Positions 1 through 47,561 of a stretch of 47,561 nucleotides of DNA are shown here, in pieces. The position numbers and the translations under genes were made by a program. The notes under the pieces are model-generated. The model saw nothing but the letters and a program-made list of their open reading frames with translations. It was not told the origin of the DNA and made no database searches. This DNA comes from an uncultured Erysipelotrichaceae bacterium (GTDB lineage: Bacteria > Bacillota_I > Bacilli_A > RF39 > UBA660), in NCBI GenBank assembly GCA_902783985.1, contig CACZTI010000061.1, forward strand, positions 1 through 47,561, read 5' to 3'. Numbering within the stretch: the stretch's first letter is position 1; each line of letters begins with the position of its first letter.

Positions 1-285
1 GTAGGATTTATAACAGCAGATGAAATAGCATATGCCGGAGGAAAATATAGTTCATCGAATAGTACATTCTATTTAAATAATAATTCAAGTTATTGGTCTG
101 GCTCGCCTGATCACTTTAGTTATGGCTATGCTTTCGAGTTCGTTGTGAATATTGCCGGCGACCTTGACTACAGCGGTGTGTCTAGCACTAATGTCAATGG
201 CGTGCGTTCTGTCGTTTCGCTAGTACCTGGAACAGCAATAACTTCTGGAGATGGAACACCAACAAATCCATATATAATAGAATAA
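1..285 (+). CDS. 3' fragment (94 codons plus TAA; 5' end outside the window) of a probable surface protein ending in a C-type-lectin-like (DUF1566/FISUMP-like) domain with a hypervariable cassette
   Basis: Frame 1 is open from base 1 to TAA at 283-285. Translation: VGFITADEIAYAGGKYSSSNSTFYLNNNSSYWSGSP...NGVRSVVSLVPGTAITSGDGTPTNPYIIE. The YWSGSP ... G-VR-x-V layout resembles lectin-fold C-terminal domains. An inverted near-identical paralogue lies at 47280-47561. Confidence 0.6.
   Translation, partial: VGFITADEIAYAGGKYSSSNSTFYLNNNSSYWSGSPDHFSYGYAFEFVVNIAGDLDYSGVSSTNVNGVRSVVSLVPGTAITSGDGTPTNPYIIE
109..198 (+). other. Hypervariable cassette (DGR variable-region-like), 30 codons, followed by a conserved GC-rich 21-mer at 199-219
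   Basis: About 50% G+C in a roughly 25% G+C background. Differs from the paralogous cassette at 47367-47453 only at codon positions 1 and 2 over the first 22 aligned codons. The flanks are otherwise almost identical. Confidence 0.5.
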
Positions 286-9238: not shown

Positions 9239-10126
9239 ATGAAAGATACAATAAGTGATTATTTAGACTATATAACTTTAGAAAAAGGATTAACTGATAA
9301 TACTCGTGAAAGTTATGCCTTTGATTTAGCATGTTTTTGTAATAAATTTAATAATTATAAAATTAATCAAATTACAGAAAATGATTTAGTAAACTATCTC
9401 AAGTATTTAAAAGATGAAAAGAAATTATCTTCAAGAAGTATTGAAAGACACTTAACAACTTTAAGAGGCTTTTATAAGTATTTAAAAAAAATGAATATTA
9501 TTAATGAAGATATAACTAGTAATATTGATAATTTAAAGTTAGAAAAAAAATTACCAACTACCTTAGATTTAGAAGAAATAAATACTCTTATGAATATAAA
9601 ACTTGATACACCATTTAATATAAGAACCAAAGCTATGCTAGAACTTATGTATTCATCAGGATTAAGAGTATCAGAATTAGTTAGTTTGACAATAAATGAT
9701 ATTGATTTATATAATGATACCATTATTGTTAATGGTAAAGGAAGAAAAGAAAGAATAGTACCAATTGGTGCTGTTGCTAAAGAATCCTTAATTAACTATT
9801 TAAACTGTAGAAATGCTTTATTAAAAAGAAAAAAAGGTAATCCCAATGAATTATTTTTAAATAATCATGGTCTTGCAATAACAAGGAATGGTTTTAATTA
9901 TCTTTTAAATAATATTTTAAAAGAGAAGGGGATAGAGAAGAAAGTATCTCCCCATACACTTAGACATTCTTTTGCCACCCATATGCTTGATAATGGTGCA
10001 GATTTAAGAACTATTCAAGAATTGCTAGGGCACACTGATATTGTAACAACTAGAATATATACTCATGTATCAAAAAAACAAATTCAAGATAATTATAATA
10101 AATATGAAAATAGAGGTGAAAAATAA
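9239..10126 (+). CDS. xerD: Tyrosine recombinase XerD (RipX-type)
   Basis: LRHSFATHMLDNGADLRTIQELLGHTDIVTTRIYTHV catalytic region. The xerD-deoB neighbourhood matches the Bacillus ripX-drm arrangement. Confidence 0.85.
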   Translation: MKDTISDYLDYITLEKGLTDNTRESYAFDLACFCNKFNNYKINQITENDLVNYLKYLKDEKKLSSRSIERHLTTLRGFYKYLKKMNIINEDITSNIDNLKLEKKLPTTLDLEEINTLMNIKLDTPFNIRTKAMLELMYSSGLRVSELVSLTINDIDLYNDTIIVNGKGRKERIVPIGAVAKESLINYLNCRNALLKRKKGNPNELFLNNHGLAITRNGFNYLLNNILKEKGIEKKVSPHTLRHSFATHMLDNGADLRTIQELLGHTDIVTTRIYTHVSKKQIQDNYNKYENRGEK

Positions 10127-11450: not shown

Positions 11451-11735
11451 AAAACGATTCGAGTTTTAAATAATTGAATAATCATCCATCTTAAATATCA
11501 TTAGAAATTTATAAACCGTTTTTAAAACGATTCGAGATATCAATAAACGGATGATTATCCATCTCAAAGAAGATTAATAAAACGCTCTGTGACGATTCGA
11601 GATATAAATAGATGAATATTTATCCATCTAAATGAAGAATATTAAATAGCATCAAGATATGATATTAAAAATAATAAATTAATGTAAAACGATTTGATAA
11701 CTTAAAACATGAACAATTATAGAACTCAAAATATA
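11451..11735 (+). repeat. Intergenic array of three 38-bp direct repeats plus one degenerate copy
   Basis: Cores lie at 11454-11491, 11527-11564 and 11592-11629. Each has ACGATTCGAG, then 20 variable nt, then ATCCATCT. Spacers are 35 and 27 bp. A degenerate ACGATTTGAT copy sits at 11689. An extremely AT-rich tract follows at 11700-11880. Confidence 0.7.
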
Positions 11736-11887
11736 TAAAAAGATATTCATATAGTTATTATTAATAAAATATCATTAAATAATAATATTATATTAATATA
11801 ATATAAAAATATCTAATTATTCTTTAAAATATATCGTTTCTTATAATATATATTATGTTAAGTTCTATAAAAATAAATAATGATAGA

Positions 11888-24885: not shown

Positions 24886-25778
24886 TTAATGTTATTGCTG
24901 TTGGTATATTTGTTTATTTAATATTTAATGAGAATAATCTTACTAAAGAAAAATTAAATGAAAAAGATAAAATAACCAAAGAATATCAAGTATTAATGAA
25001 TGATACCTCTATTAGTGAAAAAGAAATCGAAGAAGTCAATAAAAGTATTGATGAATTAGAACATGTTGATGAAACAGTTAAAACTATCAAAGAAGAAGTA
25101 TTTAAACTAGCAAGTAATGTAGAACAAAAAATACAAAAAAATGAATCAAAAATGAAAATAGCTTATCTAACATTTGATGATGGACCATATTATAATACAT
25201 ATAAAGTACTAAATATTTTAAAAGAAAATCATGTTAAAGCAACTTTCTTTACCACCAATGTTAATGGTGACAAATGCTTTGATAACAGAAATTATGAATG
25301 TCATAAATTATATAAAGAATATGCCAAAGCCAATCATACAATAGCTAATCATACATATACTCATGGTTGGAGTAGAGGTTTATATAGAAGTACTGAAAGT
25401 TTTATGGATGCCGTTAAAAAACAAGAAAACCTAGTTAAAAGTGAAACGGGACTTATTACTAATATTGTAAGATTCCCAGGTGGCAGTGGAACTCCAGGCA
25501 AAACTAAAGGTGCTGCTATGAAACAAGCTCTTTATAAAGCTGGATATGGTTGGGTTGATTGGTCAGCCCAAGATGGTGATGGTAAAGGTGTATCAAGTCT
25601 TGATGAAGCAAGAAATATCTTTAAAAAAAGCATTGATAATCCTATTGAAGTTATCTTATTTCATGATTATGATCAAAAAACCACTAAATTATTACCAGAA
25701 TTTATTAAATATCTAAGAGATAGAAATTATATATTACTTCCATTATTTTATGAAAGTGTTATGATAAACAAAAAATAA
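24843..25778 (+). CDS. Polysaccharide (peptidoglycan) deacetylase, NodB homology domain, membrane anchored
   Basis: IAYLTFDDGPY, VKATFF and HTYTHG motifs. N-terminal TM helix plus coiled coil. Confidence 0.85.
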   Translation: MERTKETIRRCFIIINVIAVGIFVYLIFNENNLTKEKLNEKDKITKEYQVLMNDTSISEKEIEEVNKSIDELEHVDETVKTIKEEVFKLASNVEQKIQKNESKMKIAYLTFDDGPYYNTYKVLNILKENHVKATFFTTNVNGDKCFDNRNYECHKLYKEYAKANHTIANHTYTHGWSRGLYRSTESFMDAVKKQENLVKSETGLITNIVRFPGGSGTPGKTKGAAMKQALYKAGYGWVDWSAQDGDGKGVSSLDEARNIFKKSIDNPIEVILFHDYDQKTTKLLPEFIKYLRDRNYILLPLFYESVMINKK

Positions 25779-37298: not shown

Positions 37299-40200
37299 TT
37301 AGCATGGGCTTCCACAAATCATACCATCAAAATTACCTGTTACAGGATCATGGCAAGTGGTAAGATGTTCTCTCTCACCACTACATGAACGAACACATCC
37401 TGTCCAACGATAGCATTCTTCTTTGATAGTTAATGTTGCCACATTTGATTCTGAAGACGTATTATAATTAGCATTTCCAGCCTTTCTTGCTTGTATTTCC
37501 CAAGTACCGATTTCTTTTCCGCAAGCGGTATTAGTTTTGTCCGAACTCCAAGCCGACCAAGAACCACCAACATTTCTCCATCTATATTCTGTGGTTAATC
37601 CTGATGTTCCACCAGTTTCTCCTATACAATGGGAATTACCATCTTTATCAAAAGAGGCATTAGATAACGTTGGGGCAGTTGGAGTAGCTTTATTTATTTT
37701 CCAACTTACTGAACATGATCCAGTATAGTTCCCCGAACCAGTACATGTATATGAATATGAATTAGCATTGGTTGCTGAGGTTGTTCCACTTGTTGCACTA
37801 CTTCCTGTTGGACATGATACTCCACTATTTTGTGATCCACCATTGTATGTTCTTGTTGCTCCTGTTGGACAACTTCCTATTGCTTTTGGATTTATTTTCC
37901 AACTTACTGAACATGATCCAGTATAGTTTCCCGAACCAGTACATGTATATGAATATGAATTAACATTGGTTGCTGAGGTTGTTCCACTTGTTGCACTACT
38001 TCCTGTTGGACATGATACTCCACTATTTTGTGATCCACCATTATATGTTCTTGTTGCTCCTGTTGGACAACTTCCTATTGCTTTTGGATTTATTTTCCAA
38101 CTTACAGAACAACTACTTGAGAATTTATATCCTGCATTTGATGTACAATTATGATAATATGTATTGGCATTTTGAGCTTTAGTAGTCCCACCGGCACTAC
38201 TTCCGCTTGGACATGTTACTCCACTATTTTGATCTGCGCCATTATATGTTTTATCAGCAGGACTTCCTGGACATGCAATGGTCATTCTATTTACTGTTGC
38301 TGTATACGTCTTACTTACTCCATTATAATTTGTTCCAGCAGCTTGCGTAATTGTTATTGTTGCCTTTTTACCATCAGCTGTTGTTGCTTGTGGGATTATT
38401 GTTAGAGTCTTTCCACTTACACTACATTTTGCAACAGATTGATCACTTGATGTACAACTTAATGCTCCATCTCCATCTGTCGTTATTGTTACTGTTCCGT
38501 TTGTTCCATATGTTAATGTCCCACTTGTTACATTTAAACTCATTGTGGTATTCTTTCTATTTATTTTCCAACTTACTGAACATGTATTCGAAAATTTATA
38601 TCCCGCGTTTGCTGTACAACTATGATGATATGTATTGGCATTTTTTCCTTTTAAATCTCCTCCTGCTGTACTTCCATTTGGACATGTTACTCCACTATTT
38701 TGATCTGCTCCATTATATGTTTTATCAGCAGGACTTCCTGGACATGCTAAAGTCTTTCTATTTACTGTTACACTATATGTTTTACTATTTGCAAGATAAT
38801 TTGCTGTTTCTGCTTGACTTACTGTTATTGTGGCAGTTTTATTATCTGCACTATTTGCTTGTGGTATTACTGTTAAAGTATTTCCACTTATACTACATTT
38901 TGCTACTGCTTGATCACTTGATGTACAACTTAATGCTCCATTACTATCTGTTGTTATTGTTACTGTTTCATTTGTTTCATATATTGCTATTCCACTTGTT
39001 TTACTTAATGACATATCTGGTAATTTTTTCTTTATATTACATACAAATGTCTTATCTGTTGTTGTTCCATCACTCCATGCTAATCCATATAATATTTTTG
39101 CTGTTACTGTATAATTTCCTGCATTTGTTCCTGTGTTATTTACAAATGTTACTCCACTTGGTGGGGCTACCGTTATTTTTTGACTCTTTGTATTATATGT
39201 TATATCATCACAATAAATATTCGTTGTTACATTTACTTTATCGGTATGTTCTGTCGTTAACATATGTGTCTTTTTTTGCGTTACTACTGTATTATTTGTT
39301 ACTTCACTTCCATTGTACATCCATTTTATTAACTTTTTATTATATATTCCTGGTAATTTATCTAAATATCCATATGGTTTTCCTGTTACTACTTCATATT
39401 GTTCGGTTGTTCCATCATCATATTTTAATGTTATATAATATGATACATCAAATTTACTACTTTTTTCTGTTTTATTTCCTACAACATCATATACTCTAAC
39501 ATTTAATTGATAACTTCCACTTTCTAACTTTTCATTGATATTATATACATTACTTGCTAATGTTTTATAATCACTATCACTACATGTTTCATTTGCTTTC
39601 TTTAGACAATATTCTATTTTTGATACTCCCATATCATCTTTGACATTATCTAATTTTATATTAACATTCTTTTTGTCTGTTCCATCTGTTATCGTATATC
39701 TATTTTCATTCTTTATTTCAAATGTAGGAGCATCTTTATCTATTTTGACATTGATTACTCTATCATCTGCTACTTTCTCTCCGTTTCTATTATAGGCTGA
39801 TACTAAATAACTTCCTCCATCATTGATTGTTATAGTACACTTCTTACTTACCGCTACACAATGATCATTTACTTTATCAATGCTATAGTATGCTATATCT
39901 TCTTTATCTAAATATAATTCTACTTGTATTCCTTCATTTATTACTTCAACGTTTTTATATGATAACAATGGATTATATCTAATTCCTGTATTTACTCTTT
40001 TTGCTGATACATTTATCGTTCCTGGTACATATCCTTGACAAAATTTTCCATCACTTTCATAATCTAAACATTTCAAACATACTTCATAATCATATGTATT
40101 GGTTACACTATCACGAAATACATAGACATCACCTTTTTCACATGTTCCACCTTTTTTATCTTTTACTGGTGATACATAATTACCACTTTCTAAGTTTTCT

Positions 40201-40415
40201 AATGCAACTATATTGTATCCCTTTATTGGTAATTCTTCACGATTCTTCTCGAAATATTCATTTCCTGATAATAACAAACTATTTTCTATTGTTTTATAAT
40301 AATTATCGCTTGCTGTATCAAAAATATAGTTATAACTTATTATTCCTATTCCTCCCAACAATGCAATAATTACCATTGTTACTATTAATTCAACTACTGT
40401 AAATCCCTTTTTCAT
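37299..40415 (-). CDS. Giant (1038 aa) prepilin-type N-terminal domain protein with Ig-like and cysteine-rich repeats; probable pilus-displayed or cell-surface adhesin
   Basis: MKKG|FTVVELIVTMVIIALLGGIG class III signal with E at +5. A pilin-like head ends in YEVCLKC. Big_2-like segments (SSDQAVAKCSISGNTLTV..ATITV) follow. The KTYNGADQNSGVTCP...CSVSWKIN module is repeated 4 times. The last 38 aa contain 6 Cys. RBS AGGTGA. Confidence 0.8.
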   Translation of the reverse strand: MKKGFTVVELIVTMVIIALLGGIGIISYNYIFDTASDNYYKTIENSLLLSGNEYFEKNREELPIKGYNIVALENLESGNYVSPVKDKKGGTCEKGDVYVFRDSVTNTYDYEVCLKCLDYESDGKFCQGYVPGTINVSAKRVNTGIRYNPLLSYKNVEVINEGIQVELYLDKEDIAYYSIDKVNDHCVAVSKKCTITINDGGSYLVSAYNRNGEKVADDRVINVKIDKDAPTFEIKNENRYTITDGTDKKNVNIKLDNVKDDMGVSKIEYCLKKANETCSDSDYKTLASNVYNINEKLESGSYQLNVRVYDVVGNKTEKSSKFDVSYYITLKYDDGTTEQYEVVTGKPYGYLDKLPGIYNKKLIKWMYNGSEVTNNTVVTQKKTHMLTTEHTDKVNVTTNIYCDDITYNTKSQKITVAPPSGVTFVNNTGTNAGNYTVTAKILYGLAWSDGTTTDKTFVCNIKKKLPDMSLSKTSGIAIYETNETVTITTDSNGALSCTSSDQAVAKCSISGNTLTVIPQANSADNKTATITVSQAETANYLANSKTYSVTVNRKTLACPGSPADKTYNGADQNSGVTCPNGSTAGGDLKGKNANTYHHSCTANAGYKFSNTCSVSWKINRKNTTMSLNVTSGTLTYGTNGTVTITTDGDGALSCTSSDQSVAKCSVSGKTLTIIPQATTADGKKATITITQAAGTNYNGVSKTYTATVNRMTIACPGSPADKTYNGADQNSGVTCPSGSSAGGTTKAQNANTYYHNCTSNAGYKFSSSCSVSWKINPKAIGSCPTGATRTYNGGSQNSGVSCPTGSSATSGTTSATNVNSYSYTCTGSGNYTGSCSVSWKINPKAIGSCPTGATRTYNGGSQNSGVSCPTGSSATSGTTSATNANSYSYTCTGSGNYTGSCSVSWKINKATPTAPTLSNASFDKDGNSHCIGETGGTSGLTTEYRWRNVGGSWSAWSSDKTNTACGKEIGTWEIQARKAGNANYNTSSESNVATLTIKEECYRWTGCVRSCSGEREHLTTCHDPVTGNFDGMICGSPC
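37693..38105 (-). repeat. Near-perfect 198-bp (66-codon) in-frame tandem duplication, about 2.1 copies
   Basis: Unit starts lie at 37693, 37891 and 38089. Copies 1 and 2 differ at 3 of 198 nt (one V/A change and two synonymous changes). Confidence 0.9.
38085..39020 (-). repeat. Older, diverged tandem duplication of a roughly 157-codon module (residues 466-620 and 621-777)
   Basis: The protein-level repeat runs from LSKTSG..TITTDSNGALSCTSSDQ..CSVSWKINRK to LNVTSG..TITTDGDGALSCTSSDQ..CSVSWKINPK. Confidence 0.8.
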
Positions 40416-45881: not shown

Positions 45882-46355
45882 TTAATTATTTATTTCTTTC
45901 ATCATTTGTTTTTTTATTGAATCTATATCTGTAAAAAATAAATTAATACCCCTAGTTTTTAATTTCATTAAATATTCAAAATAATATAAAATTTCTTCTT
46001 TTATTGATTCAACAACTTTAGCAGGTTTACCATCACTTGTTAAGTGAATATGATCAATATATTTTTCTAATGTTGGAAAAGCATTTTGTAATAAAATAAC
46101 TGATTTTTCACCTAAAATTTCTCTAATTAGTATTGTATCACATCTACCAAATTTCTTCATTTTATTATCAACTATTTTTTTATACTTATCAACTTTACTA
46201 CTTAATGGAATAAACCACAAAATATCTCCTTCTTTTATTGTAAAATATGTGGGTCTCTTTTTACCCCTTTCATGATTAGTCATTAAATTTTTATCATTTA
46301 CAATATCAAAAAATTCATCTTTTATATGATATAAGTATCCTGTTTGAATTTCCAT
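45882..46355 (-). CDS. Type III toxin-antitoxin toxin, ToxN/AbiQ-family endoribonuclease
   Basis: Collinear with ToxN/AbiQ as I recall them: YLYHIKDEFFDIV, KKRPTYF, WFIPLSSKVDKY, LLQNAFPT. ATG 46355 follows AGGAGAT. The ORF opens at 46376. It is preceded by an RNA repeat array and a terminator. Confidence 0.75.
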   Translation of the reverse strand: MEIQTGYLYHIKDEFFDIVNDKNLMTNHERGKKRPTYFTIKEGDILWFIPLSSKVDKYKKIVDNKMKKFGRCDTILIREILGEKSVILLQNAFPTLEKYIDHIHLTSDGKPAKVVESIKEEILYYFEYLMKLKTRGINLFFTDIDSIKKQMMKEINN

Positions 46356-46384
46356 AAAACCATCTCCTATTGACATTCTAACAC

Positions 46385-46421
46385 AAAATAAAAGAAAACT
46401 CTATATAATATAAGAGTTTTC
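46385..46421 (-). terminator. Attenuating terminator between the antitoxin repeats and the toxin gene
   Basis: The minus strand reads GAAAACTCT-10 nt-AGAGTTTTC followed by TTTTATTTT. Confidence 0.8.
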
Positions 46422-46424
46422 TAC

Positions 46425-46530
46425 ATTTTCACCCGGAATAATTTATTACTCACACCATCCGGAAGTGAGAAACATTGTCGACCGGAATAATTTATTACTC
46501 GCAAGCCATCCGGGAGCGAGAAACATTTAC
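46425..46530 (-). ncRNA. Type III antitoxin RNA: 2.1 tandem copies of a 49-nt repeat
   Basis: The minus strand reads AATGTTTCTCGCTCCCGGATGGCTTGCGAGTAATAAATTATTCCGGTCGAC, then AATGTTTCTCACTTCCGGATGGTGTGAGTAATAAATTATTCCGGGTGAA, then AATGT. The internal stem CTCGC/GCGAG versus CTCAC/GTGAG shows one compensatory pair change. Confidence 0.7.
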
Positions 46531-46555
46531 ACACAAATTTCTTTGATGCATAATT

Positions 46556-47279: not shown

Positions 47280-47561
47280 CTATCCAACAATGTATGGATT
47301 TGTTGGTGTTCCATCTCCAGAAGTTATTGCTGTTCCAGGAACGACCGAAACGACAGAACGCACGCCCGAGCTAGCGCTAGCCACACCACCGCTGACGCTA
47401 AGGTTGCCACCATACATATTGAACTCGTAAGCAGTGCCATTACTAAAGCTACGAGGCGAGCCAGACCAATAACCTGAATTATTATTTAAATAGAATGTAC
47501 TATTCGATGAACTATATTTTCCTCCGGCATATGCTATTTCATCTGCTGTTATAAATCCTAC
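47280..47561 (-). CDS. 3' fragment (93 codons plus TAG; 5' end outside the window) of a paralogue of the left-end gene
   Basis: The reverse complement of 47454-47561 matches 1-108 at 107 of 108 positions. Translation: ...YWSGSPRSFSNGTAYEFNMYGGNLSVSGGVASASSGVRSVVSVVPGTAITSGDGTPTNPYIVG*. Confidence 0.6.
   Translation of the reverse strand, partial: VGFITADEIAYAGGKYSSSNSTFYLNNNSGYWSGSPRSFSNGTAYEFNMYGGNLSVSGGVASASSGVRSVVSVVPGTAITSGDGTPTNPYIVG
47367..47453 (-). other. Hypervariable cassette (DGR variable-region-like), 29 codons, followed by the conserved 21-mer at 47346-47366
   Basis: Same position as 109-198 in the paralogue. About 55% G+C. The differences are confined to codon positions 1 and 2 in the first 22 aligned codons. 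Confidence 0.5.

What the first reader, a model, noticed from the sequence alone, without database searches (positions are those of the whole stretch)
47346..47453. Right-end paralogue carries a second, independently diversified cassette of different length
The cassette has the same architecture on the minus strand but is 29 codons long instead of 30. The first 22 codons fit the position-1/2-only pattern. The last 7-8 codons (GGT GTG GCT AGC GCT AGC TCG versus GTG TCT AGC ACT AAT GTC AAT) can only be aligned with indels. One alignment even requires a third-position change. That is not expected if both cassettes were copied from a single template by substitution only. Either two different template repeats serve the two targets, or the paralogues diverged by indels before or alongside diversification. 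This cassette also contains the perfect palindrome GCTAGCGCTAGC.
Basis: seen in the sequence. Interest (0 to 1): 0.65.

Follow-up and report, generated by a model that had tools for sequence, protein, structure and literature searches.

The report
Orphan DGR-type variable cassettes, unequal length
The right end of the window holds the tail of a surface-protein gene whose 29-codon hypervariable cassette looks written by a diversity-generating retroelement. It is a paralogue of the 30-codon cassette at the left end. The template and reverse transcriptase are not in the window, so the length difference stays unexplained.

Summary
At 47367-47453 (minus strand) there is a 29-codon cassette. It sits between sequences identical to those around the 30-codon cassette at 109-198.

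The best codon alignment needs three whole-codon gaps and one third-position change. The palindrome GCTAGCGCTAGC (47370-47381) is at chance level.

Both cassettes carry a strong adenine-mutagenesis signature. There are 0 third-position A in 43 and 44 codons, against 49% elsewhere in the same gene. GC is 49-54% in a 24% GC window.

The gene family has more than 2000 members and a weakly DUF6273-like C-terminus. It is a genuine DGR target family: four relatives carry a gap-free template repeat 250-430 nt behind the gene, and 85-91% of mismatches lie at template adenines. One such locus differs between two samples only in its variable region.

For this window, no template, reverse transcriptase or Avd lies in the 47.5 kb or in the flanks I could reach. 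Both cassettes are identical in 3-5 near-clonal assemblies. Family templates range from 26 to 31 codons.

Verdict: these are two orphan or remote DGR variable regions, a new member of a known kind. Whether they use two templates or acquired indels later is unresolved.

The parts
47280..47561 (-). 3' end (93 codons plus stop TAG) of the right-end paralogue. The gene runs off the window. A full-length gene carrying the same 3' end is P0002 (547 aa), found on L139.
   Evidence: Translation; homologue list and sequences; L139 matches 47561-47268 at 98.3%, with the cassette identical.
47454..47474 (-). 5' constant, A-poor part of the variable region (GGT TAT TGG TCT GGC TCG CCT; G/S-Y-W-S-G-S-P). 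The first codon differs from the left copy at position 1 (A versus G). In relatives, template homology starts at the W codon.
   Evidence: A-free runs; template boundaries in L218, L200, L232 and L235.
47367..47453 (-). Right hypervariable cassette, 29 codons (RSFSNGTAYEFNMYGGNLSVSGGVASASS). There is no third-position A, and every A lies at codon position 1 or 2.
   Evidence: It is identical in ERZ27280292, ERZ1024288, ERZ28614400, ERZ28613845 and ERZ1029114.
47346..47366 (-). 21-nt A-free element GGCGTGCGTTCTGTCGTTTCG (G-V-R-S-V-V-S), identical in both copies. It lies at the position of the IMH-like 3' boundary of the variable region.
   Evidence: only 2 matches, 0 expected. Relatives end TR-VR homology here, for example VR GTCGTTTC against TR GTATTTTC in L200.
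47370..47381 (.). Perfect palindrome GCTAGCGCTAGC inside the cassette. It is judged coincidental.
   Evidence: frequency 0.005-0.015 per cassette in simulations; seen in 1 of 47 family cassettes.
1..285 (+). 3' end (94 codons plus stop TAA) of the left-end paralogue (P0001, 550 aa, full length in L136:8275-9927).
109..198 (+). Left hypervariable cassette, 30 codons (DHFSYGYAFEFVVNIAGDLDYSGVSSTNVN). This is the comparison partner of the finding.
   Evidence: It is identical in three other assemblies.
199..219 (+). Left copy of the 21-nt A-free 3' element.

Best explanation
Main claim. The right-end cassette, like the left-end one, is the variable region (VR) of a diversity-generating-retroelement target. 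It lies at the C-terminus of a secreted or surface protein with a DUF6273-like (C-type-lectin-like) end domain.

Inferred mechanism. It was written by mutagenic retrohoming. An RNA copy of an adenine-rich template repeat (AAY codons on a conserved A-free scaffold) is reverse-transcribed with random misincorporation opposite template adenines. The cDNA then replaces the segment between the W-S-G-S-P codons and the GC-rich 3' element.

Shown here.
- The adenine signature in both cassettes.
- Homologous genes have such templates, with 85-91% of mismatches at template A.
- One relative is diversifying now.

Inferred, not shown.
- The same process wrote the two cassettes of this window.
- Their template(s) and the reverse transcriptase lie outside the 47.5 kb, so these are orphan or remote VRs.

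The length difference. Retrohoming copies the template gap-free, so a 30-codon and a 29-codon cassette separated by three codon indels cannot both be in register with one template. I think it most likely that they were last rewritten from different template copies or alleles. In relatives, template copies sit directly behind individual paralogues and differ by whole AAY codons. The indels fall where AAY runs are inferred. In the sampled near-clonal population both cassettes are static.
For: Signature in the window.
- 0/43 and 0/44 third-position A, against 48.6% in the rest of the gene. GC is 0.54 and 0.49, against 0.24 for the window. All A lie at codon positions 1-2.
- Differences between the copies sit at positions 1-2, with identical scaffold codons TTT, GGC, GCT, GAG TTC and CTT.
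- Flanks are identical.

Family evidence.
- More than 2000 homologues.
- 12 of 27 end domains weakly match DUF6273. DUF6273 is a known DGR target domain with the VR at its C-terminus (PMC11792537 and PMC10743442).
- Cassettes are depleted in K, Q, M and W.
- Composition forms a gradient from A-free, GC-rich cassettes to background-composition cassettes, so the signature is not a family-wide codon habit.

Templates in relatives.
- L218 has 20/22 mismatches at TR adenines, L200 20/23, L232 17/20 and L233 18/20. All four are gap-free, with TR-VR spacing of 429-576 nt.
- L232 and L233 are the same locus in two samples, with the same TR and different VRs.
- More than 100 short N-rich template ORFs were found. 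In the 48 pristine ones the cassette is 26-31 codons, with one 35-codon outlier that includes anchor sequence.

The window's own subgroup.
- L235 carries a copy in the template position. It is preceded by the spacer found behind the L139 and L226 genes.
- Its first four codons, AAT AAC TTT AAT, equal the template I had inferred from the window's cassettes.
- Subgroup cassettes are 27, 28, 28, 28, 29, 29 and 30 codons long.

Remote DGR targets more than 100 kb from the RT are documented (PMC5758913).
Against: - No template repeat exists in the window, in the 10-12 kb beyond the left gene, or downstream of the L139 and L140 homologues.
- No DGR-type RT exists in the window or in about 100 family loci (969 kb), using a query shown to be sensitive.
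- No Avd or RT Pfam hit was found in the window ORFs that were scanned.
- Both cassettes are identical in 3-5 other assemblies. Those assemblies are 99.95-100% identical overall, so this is weak evidence.
- Some differences are not of A-to-N type: GCC against GGT, and one third-position change.
- No hairpin follows the 3' element (z-scores -0.5 to +1.1).
- Fold evidence for a C-type-lectin domain is weak. The best PDB match has E 0.39, and CD23 lectin appears only at E above 3.
- Indels are not a known product of retrohoming.
Confidence: 0.6

Rival explanations
1. One template serves (or served) both genes. The length difference arose afterwards by ordinary in-frame replication slippage or deletion inside the variable regions. 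The cassettes are now fossil VRs of a DGR that has decayed in this lineage.
For: - The cassettes are static in all assemblies.
- There are non-A-type differences and three indels in 30 codons.
- The template-position copy of this subgroup (L235) has itself been diversified, so it would be a poor template.
- No TR or RT was found anywhere near.
- R contains a GGT GGT duplication.
Against: - The A-free signature is undecayed (0 third-position A in a gene with 49% third-position A). That argues for recent rewriting.
- Indels recur at different places in seven subgroup cassettes, and templates themselves vary by whole codons.
- A related lineage is demonstrably active.
Confidence: 0.25
2. The cassettes are diversified mainly by segmental gene conversion from partial, promoterless 3'-end copies (such as the L235 module) and from other paralogues. 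This would resemble pilS/pilE or vls systems. Retro-mutagenesis would be only the historical source of the donor diversity.
For: - Paralogues are mosaics, with 100%-identical blocks alternating with blocks about 90% identical.
- The R cassette travels unchanged into a different genomic context, L139.
- A partial 3' copy with a diversified cassette exists in this subgroup.
- Gene conversion tolerates indels.
Against: - Conversion alone cannot create the A-free, NNY-only composition.
- No donor copy is present in the window.
- In relatives, the downstream partial copies are pristine AAY templates with A-specific mismatches, not a library of variants.
Confidence: 0.1
3. There is no special mechanism. 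The two cassettes are ordinary paralogue divergence under diversifying selection on a surface loop.
For: - The loop is surface-exposed in the model, and cassette length varies across the family.
- No RT or TR is present in the window.
Against: - There are 25 changes at positions 1-2 and 1 at position 3, within flanks that are 100% identical.
- Third-position A is 0/43-44 (P of about 1e-13).
- GC is twice the background.
- Homologues have A-specific templates.
Confidence: 0.03
4. This is an assembly artefact: one gene with a polymorphic cassette was assembled at both contig ends.
For: All short-read assemblies break inside this gene.
Against: - The two copies have different downstream flanks, addB on one side and ruvA on the other.
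- Both are reproduced identically in independent assemblies. One 115-kb scaffold runs through the left copy.
Confidence: 0.02

Closest known systems
Non-adjacent or remote target genes of cellular DGRs (for example Treponema denticola; survey of Wu et al. 2018, PMC5758913)
   Same: - The variable region sits at the 3' end of a surface-protein gene.
- It has the adenine-mutagenesis signature.
- There are several paralogous targets per genome, embedded among housekeeping genes far from any RT.
   Different: - In the survey, remote targets were assigned because they match a known TR gap-free. Here no TR or RT is known for the two cassettes.
- Here the paralogous cassettes differ in length by whole codons.
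DUF6273-type DGR target proteins of Faecalibacterium prophages and 'tentaclins' (PMC11792537, PMC10743442)
   Same: - The end domain is C-type-lectin-like, with the variable region mapping to its C-terminus.
- The template scaffold is of the same type (NNFNNNNANxFNVNSxGNLNNNNVNNxNGVRP).
   Different: - Those are phage tail proteins next to avd-TR-RT cassettes.
- This family is chromosomal and was not found in IMG/VR.
- It matches DUF6273 only weakly (best E 3e-4; none for P0001 itself).
- It has no RT within 10 kb.
Bordetella phage BPP-1 mtd VR1/TR/brt cassette (AY029185)
   Same: - The VR lies at the gene's 3' end, and the TR lies a few hundred nt downstream of the target gene (one search compared).
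- Substitutions are A-to-N, with a GC-rich 3' boundary.
   Different: - In BPP-1 the TR is flanked by avd and brt. In the relatives found here the TR is a tandem duplicate of the gene's 3' end, and no avd or RT was seen nearby.
- No hairpin follows the VR.
- The window itself has neither TR nor RT.
Antigenic variation by gene conversion from silent cassettes (Neisseria pilE/pilS, Borrelia vlsE, Treponema tprK). This comparison rests on my own knowledge.
   Same: - A hypervariable segment with indels lies between conserved flanks.
- Partial promoterless copies exist in relatives (L235).
- Paralogues are mosaic.
   Different: - Those systems change all codon positions and have no adenine rule.
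- Here variation is NNY-restricted, and relatives' partial copies are AAY templates.

Membership tests
Diversity-generating retroelement (complete DGR locus) | DGR-clade reverse transcriptase encoded near the VR or TR | tested here: not met
   tblastn with BPP-1 Brt at E<=10 gave no hit in the window or in 93 family loci (884 kb). The loci fetched after that scan (L226-L235) were not re-screened with Brt. The same query finds Bacillus, Faecalibacterium, Butyrivibrio, Lactobacillus and Tenericutes phage RTs at 1e-7 to 1e-52 in 2.3 Gb. Pfam scans of selected window and L218 ORFs show no RVT domain.
Diversity-generating retroelement (complete DGR locus) | Template repeat matching the VR gap-free, with mismatches at template adenines | tested here: not met
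   For the window's two cassettes, no second copy was found. A-tolerant scans, blastn-short and an N-rich ORF scan were run over the window, L132-L144 and L226-L235. A degenerate 48-nt pattern is absent from JGI metagenomes and IMG/VR.
Diversity-generating retroelement (complete DGR locus) | Accessory variability determinant (Avd) gene | tested here: not met
   No Avd-like Pfam hit among the ten window ORFs scanned because they had no obvious housekeeping function. The remaining window ORFs look like housekeeping genes on reading their translations; precomputed Pfam labels exist only for those near the two ends. Small-ORF sensitivity is limited.
DGR target gene / variable region | Homologous genes possess TR-VR pairs with adenine-specific mismatches | tested here: met
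   L218 has 20/22 mismatches at TR A, L200 20/23, L232 17/20 and L233 18/20. All are gap-free, with the TR 250-430 nt behind the stop codon.
DGR target gene / variable region | Adenine avoidance at invariant and third-codon positions, with variation confined to positions 1-2 (NNY codons) | tested here: met
   0/43 and 0/44 third-position A, against 48.6% in the rest of the gene. There are 25 differences at positions 1-2 and 1 at position 3. K, Q, M and W are depleted in family cassettes.
DGR target gene / variable region | Conserved GC-rich 3' boundary (IMH-like) shared by the targets | tested here: met
   The identical A-free 21-mer lies at 199-219 and 47346-47366. TR-VR homology ends at the equivalent place in L200 and L218. 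Its function was not tested.
DGR target gene / variable region | Hairpin or cruciform just downstream of the VR (as in BPP-1) | tested here: not met
   DNA folds of the 87-93 nt after the boundary give z-scores of 0.37, -0.54, 1.11 and -0.26.
DGR target gene / variable region | VR lies in a C-type-lectin-like (DUF6273) or Ig-like fold | tested here: inconclusive
   12 of 27 end domains hit DUF6273 below the cut-off (best E 3e-4), and P0001 has no hit. The AF2 model has pLDDT 82. The best PDB match is the Thomasclavelia IgA peptidase at E 0.39, and CD23 lectin appears only at E above 3.
DGR target gene / variable region | Between-strain or within-population variation confined to the VR | tested here: inconclusive
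   The window cassettes are invariant in 3-5 assemblies, but those assemblies are 99.95-100% identical overall. In the relative L232/L233, variation is confined to the VR. Read-level data are not available.

The most novel reading that the evidence does not exclude
In these very low-GC rumen and gut Firmicutes the DGR may be split up.
- Each paralogous surface-protein gene carries, or once carried, its own template as a tandem duplicate of its 3' end.
- The reverse transcriptase is encoded far away, or on a mobile element or phage.
- Some template copies keep the same 3' boundary as the VR, so they can themselves be overwritten (L235).
- VR-template recombination collapses such modules and leaves orphan VRs like the two in this window.
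- Whole-codon indels arising in the AAY runs let each paralogue's cassette length evolve independently.
Probability: 0.3. Interest if true: 0.7.

Novelty: new member of a known kind. Interest (0 to 1): 0.5.

Why it matters
If the reading is right, this organism keeps at least two, and with P0006 three or more, hypervariable surface-protein genes. Their ligand-binding loops were randomised by a retroelement that lies nowhere near them.

RT-centred DGR searches would miss such targets, and would also miss the RT-distant template modules seen in relatives. The family is large (more than 2000 members) and common in rumen and gut metagenomes. It could therefore be a sizeable, uncatalogued pool of DGR-diversified adhesin-like proteins.

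The unequal cassette lengths raise a concrete question that canonical substitution-only retrohoming does not answer: how do template and target lengths co-evolve? The convergent inverted arrangement would also allow cassette swapping by inversion.

Tried and rejected
- **16-mer genome scan.** I scanned GTDB genomes and IMG/VR with GGCGTGCGTTCTGTCG. With hindsight the 16-mer could also have missed a template, because in L200 the template reads GTATTTTC where the VR reads GTCGTTTC.
- **Degenerate 48-nt VR/TR pattern.** It gave 0 hits in JGI metagenomes and in IMG/VR.
- **Synthetic template translation as a protein query.** No candidate shared enough words. A profile that also included real template translations did work.
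- **The search for related loci.** With A3 on IMG/VR, no family member was found.
- **15-mer anchor in IMG/VR.** Only chance hits.
- **Rfam.** No hits on the window, L139 or L140.
- **GC-rich island at 25401-25600.** Considered as a possible template, but it is a polysaccharide-deacetylase-like gene judging from its sequence.
- **ORFs downstream of L139, L226 and L228.** Checked as possible RTs. They are Lon protease, an Rpn-like nuclease and a partial 530-aa ORF that I did not identify; none was an RT.
- **Hairpin after the VR.** None found.
- **Foldseek against PDB.** Nothing below E 0.001.
- **The listing of cluster members.** Used to try to name the organism; it returned no names.
- **Palindrome as a functional site.** Rejected as chance.

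Full report
**What is at the coordinates.** The window is a 47.5-kb chromosomal stretch with 24% GC. It carries addAB, dxs, a xerD-like gene, mnmA, relA, ddl, murF, tkt, murC, murE, tig, ftsK, ruvAB and cotE. It is bounded by two convergent, inverted partial copies of one gene.
- The left copy reads 1-285 on the plus strand. The right copy reads 47561-47280 on the minus strand.
- Codon by codon, the copies are identical for 29 codons and differ at codon 30 position 1.
- They then diverge in a cassette of 30 codons on the left (109-198) and 29 codons on the right (47453-47367).
- They rejoin in the A-free 21-mer GGCGTGCGTTCTGTCGTTTCG (199-219 and 47366-47346). This 21-mer occurs nowhere else in the window.
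- The finding's interval is therefore the right cassette plus this 21-mer.

- A codon-aware dynamic-programming alignment gives 25 differences at codon positions 1-2, one at position 3, and three whole-codon gaps (two in the right copy, one in the left). The result is stable over gap costs 3-8.
- Ungapped, the position-1/2-only pattern breaks at cassette codon 18, not after codon 22.
- GCTAGCGCTAGC is at 47370-47381. A perfect palindrome of 12 nt or more arises in 0.5-1.5% of simulated cassettes, and it occurs once among 47 distinct family cassettes. I treat it as chance.

**Is it more than chance?**
- In the full-length left gene, 48.6% of third codon positions outside the variable region are A. 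Inside, the count is 0 of 44 (left) and 0 of 43 (right). That gives P of about 2e-13 and 4e-13.
- All 21 and 18 adenines in the two regions sit at codon positions 1 or 2. GC is 0.49 and 0.54, against 0.24 for the window.
- Between three full-length paralogues, differences outside the cassette are mostly at position 3 (for example 32/20/83). Inside, they are mostly at positions 1-2.
- Identity drops from about 90-100% along the gene to about 65% in the cassette. Elsewhere the pattern is mosaic, which indicates recombination between paralogues.
- This is the expected footprint of adenine-specific mutagenesis of an AAY-rich template. Diversifying selection would not produce it.

**The gene and its family.**
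- Other public assemblies gave the full genes. P0001 (550 aa) is the left gene. P0002 (547 aa) carries exactly the right-end cassette. P0003 carries a third, 28-codon cassette.
- The proteins start with a signal-anchor-like segment. More than 2000 homologues exist, many with two tandem units.
- The end domain matches Pfam DUF6273 only weakly: 12 of 27 members, best E 3e-4, and none for P0001 itself.
- DUF6273 is a C-type-lectin-like domain already known as a DGR target, with the variable region at its C-terminus (PMC10743442 and PMC11792537).
- An AlphaFold model of the last 135 residues has pLDDT 82. Its PDB matches are not significant: the best is Thomasclavelia IgA peptidase at E 0.39, and CD23 lectin appears at E above 3.
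- Across the family the cassette is 23-37 codons long, with a mode of 28. It is depleted in K, Q, M and W.
- Among 59 cassettes in fetched loci there is a gradient. At one end are A-free, GC-rich cassettes (0-3 third-position A, GC 0.45-0.62). At the other are cassettes of background composition (10-18 third-position A). The window's two cassettes belong to the first class.

**Search for the retroelement around the window's cassettes.**
- No template is present in the window.
- None is present in the 8 kb upstream of the left gene, nor downstream of the L139 and L140 homologues.
- No DGR-type RT is in the window or in the 93 family loci screened (884 kb), by tblastn with BPP-1 Brt at E<=10. 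The loci fetched later (L226-L235) were not re-screened with Brt.
- That query detects RTs of Bacillus, Faecalibacterium, Butyrivibrio, Lactobacillus and Tenericutes phages at 1e-7 to 1e-52 in a 2.3-Gb database. The negative result is therefore meaningful.
- Family members are embedded among housekeeping genes and are absent from IMG/VR.

**Templates do exist in relatives.** I searched each cassette against its own locus and found downstream second copies in L218, L200 and L185, the last one truncated. A lookup of a template ORF added the locus L232/L233.
- In the four full pairs, the second copy is AAY-rich and aligns gap-free.
- 20/22, 20/23, 17/20 and 18/20 mismatches lie at its adenines.
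- TR-VR spacing is 429-576 nt, which places the template 250-430 nt behind the stop codon.
- Homology begins at the W codon of W-x-x-S-P in every case. In L232 the copy extends through the gene's tail and terminator, so the template is a tandem duplicate of the gene's 3' end.
- L232 and L233 are the same locus from two samples, with the same template and different variable regions. That lineage is diversifying now.
- No RT lies within 11.4 kb upstream or 8.6 kb downstream of the L218 template, nor within 10 kb downstream of the L230 template.

**A catalogue of templates.** A profile of template translations retrieved more than 100 short N-rich ORFs.
- Their cassettes are 26-31 codons long, with a mode of 28. 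Template length itself varies by whole codons between lineages.
- P0136 is the template type for the WWLGSP subgroup. P0006, a paralogue from the same sample as one of the window's assemblies, belongs to that subgroup. Its scaffold codons differ from the window's cassettes at third positions. At least two template types are therefore needed in this organism.

**The window's own subgroup.** Seven cassettes with the same anchors are 27, 28, 28, 28, 29, 29 and 30 codons long, with indels at different places.
- The indels coincide with positions where I infer runs of AAY codons in the template. This is an inference, based on sites that vary between copies and on real family templates.
- L235 is informative. 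Its bases 1-98 are the spacer found behind the L139 and L226 genes. From base 136 on, it is a copy of the gene's 3' end starting exactly at TGGTCTGGCTCGCCT. Its downstream sequence is that of the L140 gene.
- L235 therefore sits in the template position. Its first four cassette codons, AAT AAC TTT AAT, equal the template I had inferred from the window's cassettes. The rest is diversified, and it keeps the VR-type 3' boundary.
- I infer that this template copy has itself been overwritten. I also infer that recombination between a VR and its downstream copy can collapse such a module into a gene without a template, as in L140 and perhaps both genes of this window.

**Stability.**
- The left cassette is identical in three other assemblies and the right cassette in four, but those assemblies are 99.95-100% identical to the window over 10-13 kb.
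- The right cassette is also unchanged in L139. There the context downstream of the stop codon is different, and the 5 mismatches appear to lie in the last ~25 aligned bases, judged by eye from the sequences.
- I see no evidence of ongoing diversification of these two cassettes. Consensus assemblies cannot exclude it.

**Conclusion.**
- The DGR-type reading is well supported for the family. For these two cassettes it rests on signature and homology, about 0.85 in my judgement.
- The window contains no DGR, only two orphan or remote variable regions.
- Retrohoming is gap-free in every pair I could examine. A 29-codon and a 30-codon cassette with three codon indels therefore cannot both be in register with one template.
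- I favour different template copies or alleles, which is part of the composite statement rated 0.6, over post-homing slippage in fossil VRs (0.25). Only the complete genome and read-level data can decide.
- Remote DGR targets are known (PMC5758913), so this is a new member of a known kind.
- Three points are less ordinary: the RT-distant template modules, the overwritten template copy, and the codon indels.

Noticed in passing
window 45882-46376 (-) and 46420-46535: The ORF is a CptIN-family type III toxin (NCBIfam NF047359, E 9.5e-45, above cut-off; weak Pfam ToxN hit). Just upstream on the minus strand are two tandem repeats of about 58 nt with compensatory stem changes (CTCAC/GTGAG against CTCGC/GCGAG). 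They are probably the antitoxin RNA. There is no Rfam hit, and TRF does not report the repeats.
   Followed up: partly
window 11454-11743: Four direct repeats of about 55 nt (ACGATTCGAG...ATCCATCT) lie in the gap where gene orientation and GC skew change sign. This is next to a xerD-like recombinase gene (9239-10126). The repeats could be a replication-terminus or regulatory element.
   Followed up: no
window 37299-40415 (-): A 1038-aa protein with a pilin-like N-terminal methylation motif contains a 198-nt tandem repeat (37692-38087, 98% identical) and 300-nt repeats. In two other assemblies the gene encodes 972 aa, which is one repeat unit fewer, so copy number varies between near-identical strains.
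   Followed up: partly
window 1-285 and 47280-47561: The two cassette genes are convergent inverted paralogues 47 kb apart. Recombination between them would invert the segment and swap the cassettes between the two gene bodies. Three short-read assemblies, besides the window, end inside this gene at both sides.
   Followed up: no
L218:11915-12811; L139:3856-4803; L226:5290-5907: Rpn-family (PDDEXK_2, TIGR01784-like) nuclease or 'putative transposase' genes sit just downstream of the template repeat (L218) and of the post-gene spacer (L139, L226). The two proteins are homologous to each other (BLASTP E 5e-8). Weaker copies occur in L185 and L194. This could be coincidence or a link to the module.
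   Followed up: partly
L232:620-820 / 1196-1396 and L233:479-679 / 1055-1255: This is the same locus from two samples. The template repeat is identical, but the variable regions differ at template adenines. It is a currently active DGR target in a relative, again with no RT in the available flanks.
   Followed up: yes
L235:136-324: This is a partial 3'-end copy of the window's own subgroup, sitting in the template position (spacer upstream, L140-type sequence downstream). Its cassette is diversified except for the first four codons, AAT AAC TTT AAT. The template copy seems to have been overwritten.
   Followed up: partly
L139:2617-2960, L226:4591-4940, L218:11207-11290: Right after the stop codon, several family genes share a motif AGTAAG(C/G)GTTCCAA followed by GC-rich hairpins (for example GACCCGACGCAGCGCCGGAGGGTC and CTGCCGTAAGGCAG). 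These sequences are absent from the window, and L139 gives no Rfam match (L226 and L218 were not searched).
   Followed up: no
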